Notes under the pieces: generated by a model | Seen by the model: only the letters and a program-made list of their open reading frames with translations | What the model was told of the DNA's origin: nothing | The model's database searches: none | In this document: one piece after another, positions 7,595 through 42,218 of the stretch | How the letters are laid out: each line of letters begins with the position of its first letter | How positions within the stretch are numbered: position 1 is the stretch's first letter | Made by a program: the position numbers and the translations under genes | DNA from: Eledone cirrhosa | Taxonomy: Eukaryota | Assembly: GCA_964016885.1 (NCBI GenBank) | Contig: OZ024741.1 | Location: 291,834,001-291,898,000 of the forward strand | Direction of reading: 5' to 3' | DNA: 64,000 nucleotides

Positions 7595-7969
7595 GAAGTA
7601 AAAGTCTCAGACCAGCGTCTAAATTTCCAATGAAGCCATGCTGACCGGAAATAGTATAGAGTTCTAACTTTAATATCAAAGAATTAAAATTAGGTGGGTA
7701 AAGAGTAGTCTCCCTTTAAGAGGGGTTTGTTTATGTTTTTGTTGTGTTTTTTAAATTTTATATGCGTGCCTGTATATGTGTGTGGGAGAAAGCATGAAGG
7801 TGTAGGTATGTGTGTGTGTGAGTGTGGGAAGATAGGTCTAATCGTAAAAGTGGGGGGTAGGTGTTATCTGGTGTTAGAACTGGTTTTGTGTGTGTATGTG
7901 TGAGAGAGAATAAGTGGAGGTGTGTGCGTGCGTGTGTGTGGGGTGTGTAAAGTGGGGCTAGAGGCCCTA

Positions 7970-8735
7970 TCAGGTTATAAATTGGGTGTTGAGCTCTAGT
8001 CTATTATTGATTGGTGGATGTGTTCTATCTATAATGAGTGCTTCCTTGATTCTAAGATTACCGAGGTTTCTTTCTTTAGTTTCTATCCTAACTGTTATGT
8101 TTTTATCAGTGTTTTTGCATTTAACTAGGTGTTTCTTAAATGAGGAAGCGTTAGTATTGAGGTGTTCTTTTATTCTTATGTGGAGTGGTCTGGTGGTGCT
8201 ACCTACGTAGAAGTTGTTGCATTTGTCACACTCTAGTCTGTAAACTACGTAAGCCTGGTGGCATAGGTCTGTGTCGTTGATGGGGCAGTTGGCTAGTCTG
8301 CAGCAGTTGTCATGTCTGGTGGAGTGTCTCTTAGCTAGCCGTCCACGCAAAGAAGGACCCGAATGGGCCAGTTGAATATCCAGACCTTCTCGTCTGATGG
8401 CTCTGCGGATGGCTGTTGTTGTTTCTTCACTGATGTGTGGGTGCTTCAGGAAGCAAGTGTTAGTGCCTCGGGTGTGGTGTCCTCTGTTCTTTCTGGCACG
8501 GTTTGTGGTGGATGTCGTGTATCCGTTCAGTTTGAGTACTTCCAGGAAATGTGTGGTGTGTGTGTCTCGGTCTCTGGCGTCGGTGCATTTGTTCTTGATA
8601 CGTGCCAGTTCGTTCTTTATGTATCCGAACTTGGCACCGAGTGGGAGGGCCGATCTGAAATGTACGAACAGGTCCCTGCTGGCGGATTTTTTATAGAAGC
8701 AGGTGTGGATGTTGCCTTCCTCTGTTACCCTGAGG
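7970..8735 (-). pseudogene. Penelope-like RT C-terminus + Cys linker + GIY-YIG endonuclease (truncated, frame intact)
   Basis: FYKKSASRDLFVHFRSALP (thumb), LKLNGY, CRLANCP...C, VVYRLECDKCNNFYVGSTTRPLHIRIKEH, EALII...PPIN. The ATG at 8761 comes from the inversion junction. Confidence 0.9.
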
Positions 8736-9062
8736 CTAGCCAACTGCTCCATCAACGACACAGACCTATGCCACCAGGCTTACGTAGTTTACAGACTAGA
8801 GTGTGACAAATGCAACAACTTCTACGTAGGTAGCACCACCAGACCACTCCACATAAGAATAAAAGAACACCTCAATACTAACGCTTCCTCATTTAAGAAA
8901 CACCTAGTTAAATGCAAAAACACTGATAAAAACATAACAGTTAGGATAGAAACTAAAGAAAGAAACCTCGGTAATCTTAGAATCAAGGAAGCACTCATTA
9001 TAGATAGAACACATCCACCAATCAATAATAGACTAGAGCTCAACACCCAATTTATAACCTGA
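8736..9062 (+). pseudogene. second, inverted copy of the GIY-YIG domain
   Basis: Same peptide as the C-terminus of the minus-strand ORF. Confidence 0.9.
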
Positions 9063-16839: not shown

Positions 16840-17191
16840 TATGGTCTTCTAAATGTTTTTAATATATATATGGTCTTCTAAAAGATTTTAATTAAACATA
16901 CGGTATACGGTATATTGCCAACTATACTATACATACATTCATGTATACATCGCTATTTCAGAGCAGCAATACTAATACCTAATTTTTGCTGGACCGGCAA
17001 TCGCTCTGTATAATCAGCTCCTGATTATTACTGGAATTCTATAAGAATCCAGCTTCTATAATTTTCGGCGTGGCTCTGATGAACGCCAACCAGCGTGAAA
17101 CAGACTGTCAGCTTCCCTCCCTTCTTTCGCCGAAAAGAAATAAGTGACATAGTCACTACTTTAAAACTGATAGTGTATGGTCTTCTAAATA
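16840..17191 (+). mobile_element. ~307-bp HHR-bearing monomer with terminal redundancy
   Basis: TGGTCTTCTAAA at 16871 and 17178; a junction-spanning copy lies at ~23877-24025. Confidence 0.75.
17072..17113 (+). ncRNA. canonical minimal HHR
   Basis: GGCT-CTGATGA-ACGC-caacca-GCGT-GAAAC-AGACT-GTC-AGCT; predicted cleavage after C17109. Confidence 0.88.
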
Positions 17192-35565: not shown

Positions 35566-36169
35566 TATCCATATATATATGTATATATATGTATATACAT
35601 ATATATATTTATATTAGTCTATATATGTGTGTGTGTGTGTATACATATGTGTATATATAAGTATATATATATATATATGTATGTATATCTGATCCACTGA
35701 GGATGACACGACGATCAAGAAGATAAAAAGAAAAGCATGATAACAACAACAACTACAGACAGCATGCTACGTCATGTTGACGTCATTGTTAAAAAGAAAC
35801 AATGAATGAACGTGTTGTTACAGGAACTCACAGGTGTTGTGTTGCGGGCTTTAAGTATGACTGATAATGTGTCACTCTATGTGTATGTATGTGTGCATAT
35901 GTGTGTATTTATACATATATATGTATATACATATAATGTTATATATACTTTTATAAGTACTTTTATATATGAATATATCTACGTATACACGTATATACAC
36001 AAATCTATATATGCATATATGAATATATATATATATATATATATATATCAATCCTAATATATATATTTATATAAATATATATATATAATTTTATACGTAC
36101 ATTTATACATGCTTTTATACATACACATATATATATGTACGTATACTATATATACGTATATATAGTATG

Positions 36170-40416: not shown

Positions 40417-40517
<101 letters not shown>

Positions 40518-40520
40518 TAC

Positions 40521-40559
<39 letters not shown>

Positions 40560-40562
40560 TAC

Positions 40563-40647
<85 letters not shown>

Positions 40648-40657
40648 TACGTATATA

Positions 40658-40693
<36 letters not shown>

Positions 40694-40748
40694 AATATAC
40701 GTATATAAATATACGTATATATATATATATTTATATATATAAATATAC

Positions 40749-40805
<57 letters not shown>

Positions 40806-40808
40806 TAC

Positions 40809-40876
<68 letters not shown>

Positions 40877-40898
40877 GTATATATATATATATATAAAG

Positions 40899-41838
40899 GG
40901 TAAAAATGAAACGAAATTTCATTTCTCACTCTTAGTACGGCTGTTACTTAAATATAAGTATGTATACGTACATATATATATGTATACAGGACGTACAGTA
41001 GTATATATATATACATACATACAAGCACACATATATATATGTACGTATGGATTCACCGAACATTTATTATAATTTTCGGTGTGTTTGTAAACAAACATCC
41101 CGAATTAGGCCGTACAGTGTCTATCAACCATCGTTGCTCATTTGTTCAACACTGACAAAGGAACGCTGTACTAGTTTTAAGCTTATTAGCTATCGTCAGC
41201 AACGTATACCTTCCTACCAGATGGTTGAACGTCTGAAAGACTATACTTTCCTTATGCATATTAACGGCTGAGCAGCCTAATTTGCATATCGAGTGAGTTA
41301 ATCGGCCGGTATACCGAAAACGTAAAACGGTAAAGATGAAAATGTGTGCATGTATGTATATATATATACATACTACTGTACGTCTGTATACATATATGTA
41401 TGTACGTATACATACTTATATTTAAGTAACTGCCGAACTAAGAGTGAGAAATGAAATTTCGTTTCATTTTTACTGTTTATCTTTTTCGGTACCCCGGCCG
41501 ATTAACTCACTCGATATGCAAATTAGGCTACTCAGCCGTTAATATGCATAAGGAAAGTATATACTTTCAGAAGTTCAACCATCTGGAAGGAAGGTATACG
41601 TTGCTGACGATAGCTAATGAGCTTGAAACTAGTACAGCTTTCGTTTGTCAGTGTTGAACAAATGAGCAACGATGGTTGATAGACACTGTACGGCTTAATT
41701 CGGAATGTTTGTTTACAAACACACCGAGCATTATAATAAATGTTCGGTGAATCCACACGTACATATATATATGTGTGCATGTATGTTTATATATATACAT
41801 ACTACTGTACGTCTGTATACATATATGTATGTACGTAT
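40899..41838. mobile_element. ~430-bp HHR element: two inverted, differently permuted monomers
   Basis: Terminal redundancy 40899/41329 in copy 1 and 41342/41771 in copy 2. Confidence 0.8.
41600..41638 (+). ncRNA. minimal HHR (mutated antisense copy at 41164-41204)
   Basis: GTTG-CTGACGA-T-AGCT-aatg-AGCT-T-GAAAC-TA-GTA-CAGC. Confidence 0.8.
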
Positions 41839-42094
41839 ATATATATATATATATATACTTTAAGAATAAAGGAACAAGGAACAAGGATTCAGTGTTGCAT
41901 CATGACATATTTAATAACATATTACATATATTCCACTATCGATCAGTTCGTGGAACGCCCTACTATTGATCCAACCCGACTCTATAATCGAAAGATCATC
42001 AGACAGTATTACCCTCTGCTCTGTGCGAGCATCGAGTGCTCAACCGGCATGCCGCCTACGGACGCAATCTTTCTTGCAACCATACACCTATACG

Positions 42095-42218
<124 letters not shown>

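What the first reader, a model, noticed from the sequence alone, without database searches (positions are those of the whole stretch)
40899..41838. Two inverted monomers of a ~430-nt HHR element in different circular permutations
Seen: copy 1 starts and ends with GGTAAA(A/G)ATGAAA (period 430). Copy 2 is inverted, starts elsewhere, reads through copy 1's end-start junction at ~41470, and repeats its own first ~65 nt (period 429). The HHR is intact in copy 2 and has G12A in copy 1. The copies differ at many sites. Inference: a circular or concatemeric template and two template molecules joined at one locus.
Basis: partly seen in the sequence, partly recalled or inferred. Interest (0 to 1): 0.76.

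Follow-up and report, generated by a model that had tools for sequence, protein, structure and literature searches.

The report
Inverted Penelope-like hammerhead retroelement insertion
This is one aged copy of a very abundant ~430-nt hammerhead-motif repeat whose two head-to-head arms, two fixed outer ends and (TA)n target match the insertion scars of Penelope-like retrotransposons, which likely copied it from a multi-unit RNA; a circular template is possible but not shown.

Summary
Window 40893-41853 holds two inverted, more-than-unit-length copies of a ~430-nt repeat. Each carries a type-I hammerhead motif, with G12A in copy 1.

The locus is not special. The genome holds 24,750 exact copies of the 31-nt ribozyme core and 0 of the reversed control.

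- Every inverted neighbour pair sampled is head-to-head (24 of 24).
- 54 of 61 arm ends fall at two fixed sites 56-61 nt apart.
- A two-armed locus carries one end of each kind (15 of 15 scored automatically).
- Flanks are mostly (TA)n.

These are the published hallmarks of Penelope-like element (PLE) insertions: partial tandems, an inverted 5'-truncated copy, a "tail" at one end and an AT-rich target. The genome is rich in RT plus GIY-YIG elements.

So the "different circular permutations" are two alternative reverse-transcription start sites plus variable 5' truncation on a tandem template. A multi-unit template is supported, and a circle is neither needed nor excluded. The 6% difference between the arms equals that between units within one arm, so it reflects age, not two templates.

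Not done or not found: the autonomous partner, any RNA evidence, an Rfam hammerhead match.

Verdict: a new member of a known kind (animal non-LTR retrozyme, a non-autonomous PLE).

The parts
40417..40892 (.). (TA)n-rich microsatellite flanking the A end. It is the likely insertion target. It is interspersed with AAATATACG.
   Evidence: Of 54 classified family ends, 44 have at least 50% TA/AT steps in the next 30 nt.
40893..41341 (-). The hammerhead-sense strand is the minus strand. It covers about 1.04 units, with its 3' end pointing outward at family end site A (...CCCTTTAT|(AT)n in hammerhead sense).
   Evidence: L001 minus strand, class A, offset 0.
40893..40951 (-). The "tail": the 59 nt between end sites A and B. 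It is present at this end only and contains an AU-rich hairpin at 40904-40924.
   Evidence: A minus B is 59 nt in this subfamily, 61 nt in another. Fold of the copy-2 tail: -9.8 kcal/mol, z -1.68.
41163..41205 (-). Hammerhead motif of arm 1, with core position G12 changed to A (41178). It is predicted to be inactive.
41341..41342 (.). Head-to-head (5'-5') junction of the two arms. It joins unit position 13 to unit position ~133 of the other strand. I see no clear microhomology.
   Evidence: Inner junctions differ from locus to locus.
41342..41853 (+). The hammerhead-sense strand is the plus strand. It covers about 1.2 units, with its 3' end pointing outward at family end site B, where it merges into a short (TA)n.
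   Evidence: (L001 plus strand, class B).
41422..41480 (+). Internal passage of the tail inside arm 2. Site B (41421|41422) and site A (41480|41481) are both read through here into the next unit.
41598..41640 (+). Hammerhead motif of arm 2. Helix I 5' strand is 41598-41603, the core is 41604-41634, and the predicted cut is at 41634|41635. Helix I 3' strand is 41635-41640 and carries one mismatch at 41639.
41771..41839 (+). Second copy of 41342-41410 (offset 429). It is the overlap that makes arm 2 longer than one unit.

Best explanation
Window 40893-41853 is a single old insertion of a non-coding ~430-nt hammerhead-motif repeat into a (TA)n microsatellite, likely made by the reverse transcriptase/endonuclease of a Penelope-like element (PLE), which would prime cDNA on both cut DNA strands from a multi-unit RNA.

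Shown directly:
- The two arms lie head-to-head, with their hammerhead-sense 3' ends pointing outward.
- One arm ends at family site A (after ...UUAU) and the other at site B, 59 nt upstream (after ...ACUUAUAU). Only one end therefore carries the "tail".
- Each arm runs back over more than one unit and stops at a locus-specific point.
- The same design recurs across a family with 24,750 exact ribozyme cores.

Inferred:
- A and B are two internal start sites of reverse transcription on the RNA, as measured for the Anolis PLE called PAc.
- The two arms come from the two DNA strands of one cleaved target.
- The arms are joined by the host after 5' truncation.
- The template is a tandem (multi-unit) transcript.
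- The hammerhead is a PLE-type dimer-dependent ribozyme. It is not required for insertion itself.

The differences between the arms are post-insertion decay.
For: 1. Abundance. The patterns CTGATGA... and CTGACGA...GAAACTAGTA give 11,786 and 12,964 exact hits, with 0 for the reversed controls.

2. Orientation rule. Among the first 100 hits of each pattern, inverted neighbours within 1.2 kb are minus-then-plus in 14 of 14 and 10 of 10 cases. None is plus-then-minus. Spacings range from 42 to 713 nt.

3. Fixed ends. Of 61 arm 3' ends in 41 regions, 25 are at A, 29 at B and 7 elsewhere. B ends also occur against non-TA flanks (L014, L025), so B is a true terminus.

4. One end of each kind.
- 15 of 15 head-to-head loci with both ends auto-classified are A plus B. 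I dropped C1_11816481, whose arms are tail-to-tail 1.8 kb apart.
- Reading the maps by eye adds 6 more A plus B loci and 2 B/B loci (L007, L029).

5. Target. 44 of 54 classified ends abut sequence with at least 50% TA/AT steps.

6. Literature match.
- PLE insertions show 5' truncation, partial tandems, an adjacent inverted 5'-truncated copy, a 30-40-bp tail often at one end only, and (TA)n targets for Naiads (PMC8557442, passages read).
- The PAc protein cleaves and extends both strands. It starts reverse transcription at two internal RNA sites whose interval is the tail, uses multi-copy RNA, and does not need hammerhead cleavage in vitro (PMC11167929, main text read).

7. The genome is PLE-rich.
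- GIY-YIG (PF01541) gives 10,597 candidates; 150 of 150 scored pass the cut-off.

8. Hammerhead motif.
- Helix I has 6 bp, helix II has 4 bp, and helix III is 2 bp inside the palindrome ACUAGU. This is the canonical metazoan type-I design described in PMC4209133.
- Helix I pair 2.3-1.3 is a standard pair in 81 of 82 copies, with 5 pair types (U-G 43, G-U 32, A-U 3, C-G 2, U-A 1).
- The free position N7 varies (C 48, U 34).

9. Arm divergence equals within-arm divergence. In young locus C1:5539642 the plus arm's only unit is identical (0 of 330) to two units of the opposite arm.
Against: - No autonomous PLE sharing this family's hammerhead or tail sequence was found. 17 PLE-bearing loci showed no nucleotide similarity, and two further GIY-YIG/hammerhead neighbourhoods were coincidental.
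- No Rfam hammerhead model matches the motif at E<=10, even in a 75-nt search. Another hammerhead-like motif in the window does get a weak HH9 match at 18.1 bits.
- The motif has a U-U opposition at the base of helix II in 82 of 82 copies. The only precedent I read is axolotl HHR_Amex2, which has a U-U mismatch there (PMC7229834, passage).
- The tail is 56-61 nt, longer than the published 30-40 bp.
- PAc in vitro showed no strand preference between the two start sites. The strict one-of-each rule seen here is therefore not predicted by the published data.
- Self-cleavage, transcription and mobilisation are all untested.
Confidence: 0.75

Rival explanations
1. Same retroelement, but the template is a hammerhead-processed circular RNA (a retrozyme circle) copied by rolling-circle reverse transcription. 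Priming on the circle at sites A and B would give arms longer than one unit in two permutations.
For: - Arms exceed one unit.
- Some arrays have units with 0 differences (3 x 466 nt). Others alternate ABAB, with 0-4 differences between alternate units against 16-19 between neighbours. That is what repeated passes round a monomeric or dimeric circle would give.
- Animal tandem repeats with type-I hammerheads are expressed as circRNAs (PMC7229834, passages read).
- The 430-nt unit is strongly self-paired: -127.3 kcal/mol, z -5.96, 0 of 100 shuffles as stable.
Against: - Nothing here requires a circle. Tandem genomic arrays can supply multi-unit transcripts.
- Identical or ABAB units can also arise by in-situ duplication, by template jumps, or by insertion into an existing copy (compound arm at C1:14395179).
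- By eye in the maps, inner junctions do not cluster at the predicted cleavage site (unit position ~270).
- No RNA data could be obtained.
- For PAc the unprocessed multi-copy RNA is the dominant substrate (PMC11167929).
Confidence: 0.15
2. A SINE-like repeat mobilised by an APE-type LINE, with the inverted arms produced by L1-style twin priming.
For: 3' ends of a LINE with (GAT)n tails lie directly beside the (TA)n flanks of family copies in L006, L029 and twice in L078. One such copy (L078) has an open frame with Exo_endo_phos, RVT_1 and PHD domains. Twin priming (recalled, not looked up) gives head-to-head inversions.
Against: - The family's 3' ends (...CCGTTTAT and ...ACTTATAT) share nothing with the LINE's ...GGACGTAAAATGATGATGA end.
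- Two alternative termini a fixed 56-61 nt apart, one of each per locus, are a PLE signature and not a LINE one.
- Inverted arms here cover overlapping parts of the unit and more than one unit.
Confidence: 0.04
3. A DNA-level origin: a 430-bp satellite array that suffered an inversion or formed a palindrome, or a foldback or rolling-circle DNA transposon.
For: The locus is a long imperfect inverted repeat next to microsatellites. One locus (L018) is symmetric about its centre.
Against: - Orientation is head-to-head in 24 of 24 pairs.
- Outer ends are fixed while inner junctions differ at every locus.
- Most loci have arms of unequal length, which argues against snap-back or simple palindromes.
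- There is no constant 5' terminus and no Helitron-like CTRR end.
Confidence: 0.04

Closest known systems
Animal non-LTR retrozymes (Cervera & de la Pena 2020, PMC7229834; Li, Clavereau & Pollet 2026 preprint, 10.64898/2026.07.22.740005)
   Same: - Short non-coding repeat in tandem, with units of 420-500 nt here against 150-450 bp published.
- Low GC (35.6%).
- One type-I hammerhead per unit with a weak, palindromic helix III.
- Thousands of copies.
- Co-occurrence with PLEs.
   Different: - Expression and circularity are untested here.
- The copies here are mostly short arrays in head-to-head pairs with two fixed 3' termini in (TA)n. In the passages I read of those two papers I saw no description of inverted arms or of a tail. 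A term search found 'inverted' 0 times in PMC7229834. In the preprint it found 'tail' 0 times and 'inverted' only in a reference title.
Insertion architecture of Penelope-like elements (Craig et al. 2021, PMC8557442; Frangieh et al. 2024, PMC11167929)
   Same: 5' truncation, partial tandems, an adjacent inverted 5'-truncated copy, a tail at one end, an AT-rich or (TA)n target, and a hammerhead upstream of the reverse-transcription start region.
   Different: - No ORF, so the element is non-autonomous.
- The tail is 56-61 nt rather than 30-40 bp.
- The (TA)n preference was described for Naiads, which lack canonical hammerheads. This family has one.
- The partner element was not identified.
L1 twin priming
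   Same: The second DNA strand primes on the RNA as well, giving an inverted 5' part joined head-to-head.
   Different: Here both arms carry a 3' terminus of the element and overlap in content. The two priming sites are fixed internal sites a set distance apart.
Plant LTR retrozymes and viroid-like circular RNAs
   Same: Hammerhead-bearing non-autonomous retroelements with a proposed circular RNA stage.
   Different: Those carry type-III hammerheads in LTRs, have PBS/PPT signals and depend on Ty3-type elements (from abstracts). None of that is present here.

Membership tests
Hammerhead ribozyme, type I (metazoan canonical form) | Core C3 U4 G5 A6 N7 G8 A9 ... G12 A13 A14, the A15.1-U16.1 pair, and H17 before the cut | tested here: met
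   Arm 2: CUGACGA ... GAAA C UA G U A|. These positions are intact in 69 of 82 sampled copies. Arm 1 fails the test (G12A).
Hammerhead ribozyme, type I (metazoan canonical form) | Helix I of about 6 bp, supported by covariation | tested here: met
   The family majority has 6 bp. Pair 2.3-1.3 is U-G 43, G-U 32, A-U 3, C-G 2, U-A 1 and U-U 1 of 82. Copies are not independent events: there are two large lineages plus singletons.
Hammerhead ribozyme, type I (metazoan canonical form) | Helix II of about 4 bp closing on the core (usually G10.1-C11.1) | tested here: inconclusive
   AGCU/AGCU forms 4 bp, but U faces U at 10.1/11.1 in 82 of 82 copies. There is no covariation because the helix is invariant. 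A U-U mismatch at the base of helix II is reported for axolotl HHR_Amex2 (PMC7229834, passage).
Hammerhead ribozyme, type I (metazoan canonical form) | Short helix III (1-2 bp) with a small palindromic loop, allowing dimers | tested here: met
   A-C-UA-G-U forms the palindrome ACUAGU. The feature is described in PMC4209133 (first part read).
Hammerhead ribozyme, type I (metazoan canonical form) | Match to a curated covariance model (Rfam clan CL00010) | tested here: not met
   No hammerhead hit at the gathering score. None at E<=10 on 981 nt or on 75 nt. A control motif at 17076-17109 gets HH9 at 18.1 bits, E 0.015.
Hammerhead ribozyme, type I (metazoan canonical form) | Self-cleavage at the predicted site | not testable with these tools
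   Needs in vitro transcription of monomer and dimer constructs.
Penelope-like element insertion (non-autonomous derivative) | Partial tandem (pseudo-LTR) organisation with variable 5' truncation | tested here: met
   Arms of 0.1 to about 2 units, and up to 6, with a different inner end at every locus.
Penelope-like element insertion (non-autonomous derivative) | Inverted 5'-truncated copy adjoining the 5' end | tested here: met
   24 of 24 inverted neighbour pairs are head-to-head. The window locus is one of them.
Penelope-like element insertion (non-autonomous derivative) | Optional short "tail" extension, often at one end only, bounded by two reverse-transcription start sites | tested here: met
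   54 of 61 ends fall at sites A or B, 56-61 nt apart. 15 of 15 auto-classified two-armed loci are A plus B. The length exceeds the published 30-40 bp. That A and B are reverse-transcription start sites is inferred.
Penelope-like element insertion (non-autonomous derivative) | AT-rich or microsatellite target | tested here: met
   44 of 54 ends abut TA-rich sequence. The window's left flank is a (TA)n-rich tract of about 480 bp.
Penelope-like element insertion (non-autonomous derivative) | Sequence shared with an autonomous RT plus GIY-YIG element of the same genome | tested here: inconclusive
   PLE ORFs are abundant. None of the 17 sampled PLE loci is similar to the unit, but that is 17 of more than 10,000 candidates.
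Animal non-LTR retrozyme | Transcribed and processed into monomeric linear and circular RNA | not testable with these tools
   No RNA holder was listed.

The most novel reading that the evidence does not exclude
The strict one-tail-per-insertion rule means that one dimeric PLE particle grips a single RNA at the tail hairpin. It primes the two cut DNA strands at the two sides of that hairpin (sites A and B). The RNA it grips is a hammerhead-processed circle, monomeric or dimeric, copied round and round. That would explain arms longer than one unit, arrays of identical units and ABAB arrays, and would make this family a natural readout of how retrozyme circles are written back into DNA.
Probability: 0.15. 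Interest if true: 0.7.

Novelty: new member of a known kind. Interest (0 to 1): 0.4.

Why it matters
Animal hammerhead repeats ("non-LTR retrozymes") are proposed to spread through circular RNAs. A newer proposal is that they are non-autonomous passengers of Penelope-like elements, and in what I read that case rests on co-occurrence and sequence relatedness.

This family adds structural evidence at large copy number. Its insertions carry the PLE-specific scars: head-to-head arms, two start sites, a tail at one end and a (TA)n target.

The near-absolute pairing of one tailed end with one tail-less end is a quantitative clue to how the two DNA strands are used during PLE integration. That step is still undefined in the literature I read.

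For this locus itself the message is sobering. It is an ordinary, decayed copy, and its "permutations" do not demonstrate a circle.

Tried and rejected
- **Rfam.** Nothing at the gathering score on the whole window. Only TA-rich microRNA-like noise at E<=10 on the locus. No hammerhead hit on 75 nt.
- **Thermodynamic folds.** The two hammerhead stretches and the tail are not better than shuffles (z +0.64, -1.00, -1.68). This says nothing either way for a hammerhead.
- **RNA evidence.** No RNA holder was listed. I then laid a stretch beside them, as the tool's message allows, on contigs only. The one run guessed to be RNA laid nothing, so this gives no information on expression, RNA ends or circles.
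- **Autonomous partner.**
  - 17 PLE-bearing loci have no similarity to the unit.
  - Hammerhead pairs 4.6-5 kb apart turned out to flank an APE-type LINE or nothing relevant.
  - Two places where GIY-YIG and hammerhead hits lie 3-5 kb apart were coincidental.
- **A failed search.** A DNA search of the genome with the diverged subfamily (L020:830-1130) returned nothing, not even itself. This is unexplained. I used exact patterns instead.
- **G12A as a lineage marker.** Seven loci share it, but on different marker backgrounds, and the sample was picked by similarity to copy 1. Ascertainment explains it.
- **Do the arms of a locus share sublineage markers?** Discordance is 26% between opposite arms, 28% within an arm and 37% between loci. 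Fisher p is 0.04 on non-independent pairs, so this is only a weak hint of a common source.
- **Snap-back hairpin model.** Rejected as the general mechanism because most loci have unequal arms.
- **Helitron or foldback models.** Rejected: there is no fixed 5' end and no CTRR end.
- **Earlier findings of the scan.** None exist for this genome.

Full report
**1. What is in the sequence.**

- GGTAAAAATGAAA at 40899 recurs as GGTAAAGATGAAA at 41329, period 430.
- The right half is the reverse complement of the left. The arms are 40990-41341 and 41462-41813, 352 nt, 93% complementary.
- A 12-mer dot plot gives two antidiagonals, sums 82803 and 82373. Read on the minus strand, copy 2 therefore runs from unit position ~66 through 430 and 1 to 133.
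- Copy 2 crosses copy 1's end/start point at 41480|41481. It repeats its own first 69 nt: 41342-41410 equals 41771-41839, offset 429, 1 mismatch.
- A hammerhead-like motif lies on the plus strand of copy 2. The core is 41604-41634 and the predicted cut is 41634|41635. The motif also lies on the minus strand of copy 1, where GAAA reads AAAA (G12A at 41178).

**2. It is one member of a huge family.**

The window lies in a ~3.0-Gb eukaryotic assembly.
- A 281-nt piece of the unit has at least 1,553 candidate matches.
- The 31-nt ribozyme core occurs exactly 12,964 times with C at the free position N7. It occurs 11,786 times with U there. The reversed control patterns occur 0 times.
- Unit periods range from about 420 to 540 nt between subfamilies.
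- Inside the window this locus is the only copy.

**3. Anatomy across loci.**

I used two samples.
- Sample 1: 27 independent loci of the window's subfamily. These are 30 fetched loci minus L005, L009 and L010, which repeat L004. They were chosen by similarity to copy 1.
- Sample 2: 14 regions holding the first 30 U-variant hits along contig C1.

Four regularities emerge.

(a) Where two arms are inverted they are always head-to-head in hammerhead sense. In the position-ordered lists of the first 100 hits of each pattern, inverted neighbours within 1.2 kb are minus-then-plus 14 and 10 times, and plus-then-minus 0 times. Spacings are 42-713 nt.

(b) The outward-pointing 3' ends are not arbitrary. 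Of 61 arm ends, 25 stop at site A...CCGUUUAU in this subfamily and ...CAACUUAU in another, at the point where an internal unit would continue with CGUUUUCGG. Another 29 stop at site B, after ...ACUUA(C/U)AU, where an internal unit would continue with UUAAGUAA. Seven stop elsewhere. A and B are 59-61 nt apart by my site definitions, and observed ends are 56-61 nt apart. B ends also abut non-repetitive flanks (L014, L025), so B is a real terminus and not microsatellite blur.

(c) A two-armed locus has one end of each kind. This holds in 15 of 15 loci when both ends are classified automatically. I dropped C1_11816481, whose arms are tail-to-tail and 1.8 kb apart. Reading the maps by eye for short arms that lack a hammerhead adds 6 more A plus B loci and 2 B/B loci (L007, L029).

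(d) Inner junctions differ at every locus. Arms span 0.1 to about 2 units, and up to 6. Flanks are TA-rich at 44 of 54 classified ends.

The window locus fits exactly. Its left arm ends at A against ~480 bp of (TA)n-rich sequence. Its right arm ends at B in a short (TA)n.

**4. What this matches.**

Published descriptions of Penelope-like elements list the following features (PMC8557442, passages read).
- Strong 5' truncation and partial tandems.
- An inverted 5'-truncated copy adjoining the 5' end.
- A 30-40-bp "tail" often present at only one end.
- A (TA)n preference for the Naiad clade.

Biochemistry of the Anolis element PAc adds more (PMC11167929, main text read).
- The protein cleaves and extends both DNA strands.
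- It starts reverse transcription at two internal RNA sites whose interval is the tail.
- It is thought to use multi-copy RNA.
- It does not need hammerhead cleavage in vitro.

The genome at hand is full of such elements.
- PF01541 (GIY-YIG) has 10,597 candidates, and 150 of 150 scored pass the cut-off.
- I scanned five sampled open frames of 515-1096 aa against Pfam. Three carry RVT_1 followed by a C-terminal GIY-YIG domain and two show RVT_1 only.

The family itself has no ORF. It is therefore best read as a non-autonomous PLE derivative, which is what the literature calls an animal non-LTR retrozyme (PMC7229834; preprint 10.64898/2026.07.22.740005). In the parts of those two papers that I read or term-searched I saw no mention of inverted arms or a tail.

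**5. The ribozyme.**

The family majority reads: 6-bp helix I; CUGA(C/U)GA; U; AGCU-loop-AGCU; U; GAAA; C-UA-G-U-A|. This gives a 4-bp helix II and a 2-bp helix III inside the palindrome ACUAGU. It is the "canonical metazoan type I" layout that is thought to act as a dimer (PMC4209133, first part read).

Evidence across 82 sampled copies:
- The defining core positions are intact in 69.
- N7 varies (C 48, U 34).
- Helix I pair 2.3-1.3 is a standard pair in 81, with five pair types.
- In a subfamily about 75% identical overall, the change is U-G to G-U, a change on both sides.

Evidence against:
- Rfam finds no hammerhead here at any threshold tried. It gives a weak HH9 hit to another motif in the window.
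- U faces U at the base of helix II in all 82 copies. An axolotl retrozyme hammerhead is described with the same weakness (PMC7229834, passage).

I call it a probable type-I hammerhead. Activity is untested.

**6. Circle, concatemer, one template or two.**

Arms longer than one unit show that the template carried more than one unit. That can be a transcript of a tandem array or repeated passes round a circle. Several observations bear on this.
- Some arrays have identical units (3 x 466 nt, 0 differences). Others have an ABAB pattern, with alternate units differing by 0-4 and neighbours by 16-19. So some unit-multiplying process exists. Rolling-circle copying, end-to-end template jumps, insertion into an existing copy and in-situ duplication all fit.
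- The "many differences" between the window's arms are 20 of 315 outside the TA-rich part. They do not indicate two templates.
  - Between-arm divergence is 6.0% and within-arm divergence is 6.2% in loci that have both.
  - Each arm has its own 12-14 private changes against the family majority, and only 2 are shared.
- In young locus C1:5539642 the plus arm's only unit is identical over 330 nt to two units of the opposite arm. At C1:14395179 the 0-difference comparison uses windows that largely overlap, because the two cores lie 117 nt apart.
- One locus (C1:14395179) has an arm whose inner unit shows 0 differences from the opposite arm in that overlapping comparison, while its outer unit differs by 12%. 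Template switching or insertion next to an older copy therefore does occur.
- No RNA data were available.

**7. Mechanism proposed.**

Shown: the architecture, the two fixed ends, the orientation rule, the target, and the ribozyme motif with covariation.

Inferred:
- A PLE protein cuts a (TA)n tract.
- The two 3'-OH ends prime on multi-unit family RNA at sites A and B.
- Both cDNAs run 5'-ward for variable distances and are joined head-to-head.
- Both sites end in UAU or AU, so a few bases of pairing with a (TA)n primer are possible.

The one-of-each rule suggests that the two primings are coupled, for example by a dimeric particle holding one tail hairpin. PAc in vitro showed no strand bias between the sites, so this coupling is my inference. 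It is also the most interesting open point.

**8. Verdict.**

The locus is an ordinary, decayed member of a known kind. The family as a whole gives good material for testing how PLE-type integration uses the two DNA strands, and whether retrozyme circles are ever templates.

Noticed in passing
window 5689(+), 17076(+), 29981(-), 32743(-), 56399(-): Five further CUGANGA...GAAA motifs with a plausible helix II; a sixth regex hit at 35697(+) was not examined. Two end in GAAACGUU (the minimal PLE-type form). The one at 17076-17109 gets a weak Rfam Hammerhead_HH9 match (18.1 bits, E 0.015). About 3 such regex hits would be expected by chance in 128 kb, by my rough estimate.
   Followed up: partly
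L078:1990-5165(-) and 7600-9000(-); L006 and L029 left flanks: 3' ends of a LINE, reading ...GGACGTAAAA(C/T)GATGATGATGA, lie directly beside the (TA)n tracts that flank family copies. This happens in three sampled loci, twice in L078. In L078 the LINE has an open frame with APE endonuclease, RT and PHD domains. In L006 two such ends face inward on both sides. (TA)n tracts may be shared landing sites, or may be seeded at LINE tails.
   Followed up: partly
L083 (C1:19314300-19317799), L082, C1:5539642-5545203, C1:11816481-11822749: Arrays with dimeric higher-order structure. Unit lengths alternate 420/422/420/422. Alternate units differ by 0-4 and neighbours by 16-18. There is also one array of three identical 466-nt units.
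   Followed up: partly
C1:14395179-14398842: A compound locus. The two hammerhead cores are 117 nt apart. The inner unit of the plus arm shows 0 differences of 330 from the minus-arm unit, though the compared windows largely overlap. The outer unit of the same arm differs by 41-43 of 330, although the join through the tail is seamless.
   Followed up: no
27 loci (unit positions 194-217): By eye, about 7 of 32 inner arm ends fall at unit positions 194-217, beside the small palindrome GTTTGTAAACAAAC. This could be a reverse-transcription stop or an RNA 5' end. It was not tested statistically.
   Followed up: no
window 40417-40896 and 42095-42216: The left-flank (TA)n carries a recurring AAATATACG insert. 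A (TA)n-(TG)n compound microsatellite lies about 250 bp to the right of the element. Runs of (TA) of at least 6 repeats make up 8.9% of the window, and the window holds 200 N.
   Followed up: no
coded runs X6 and X7 (organisms C and D), laid on window 41425-41750: Contigs from two other coded organisms match parts of the unit, most at 85-95% likeness and two of the X6 contigs at 95-99% (7 contigs and 1 contig). Relatives of the family therefore seem to exist outside the source genome.
   Followed up: no
The genome search: A 301-nt query taken from a locus of the same genome found nothing, not even itself. I take this as a tool filter effect and not as biology.
   Followed up: no
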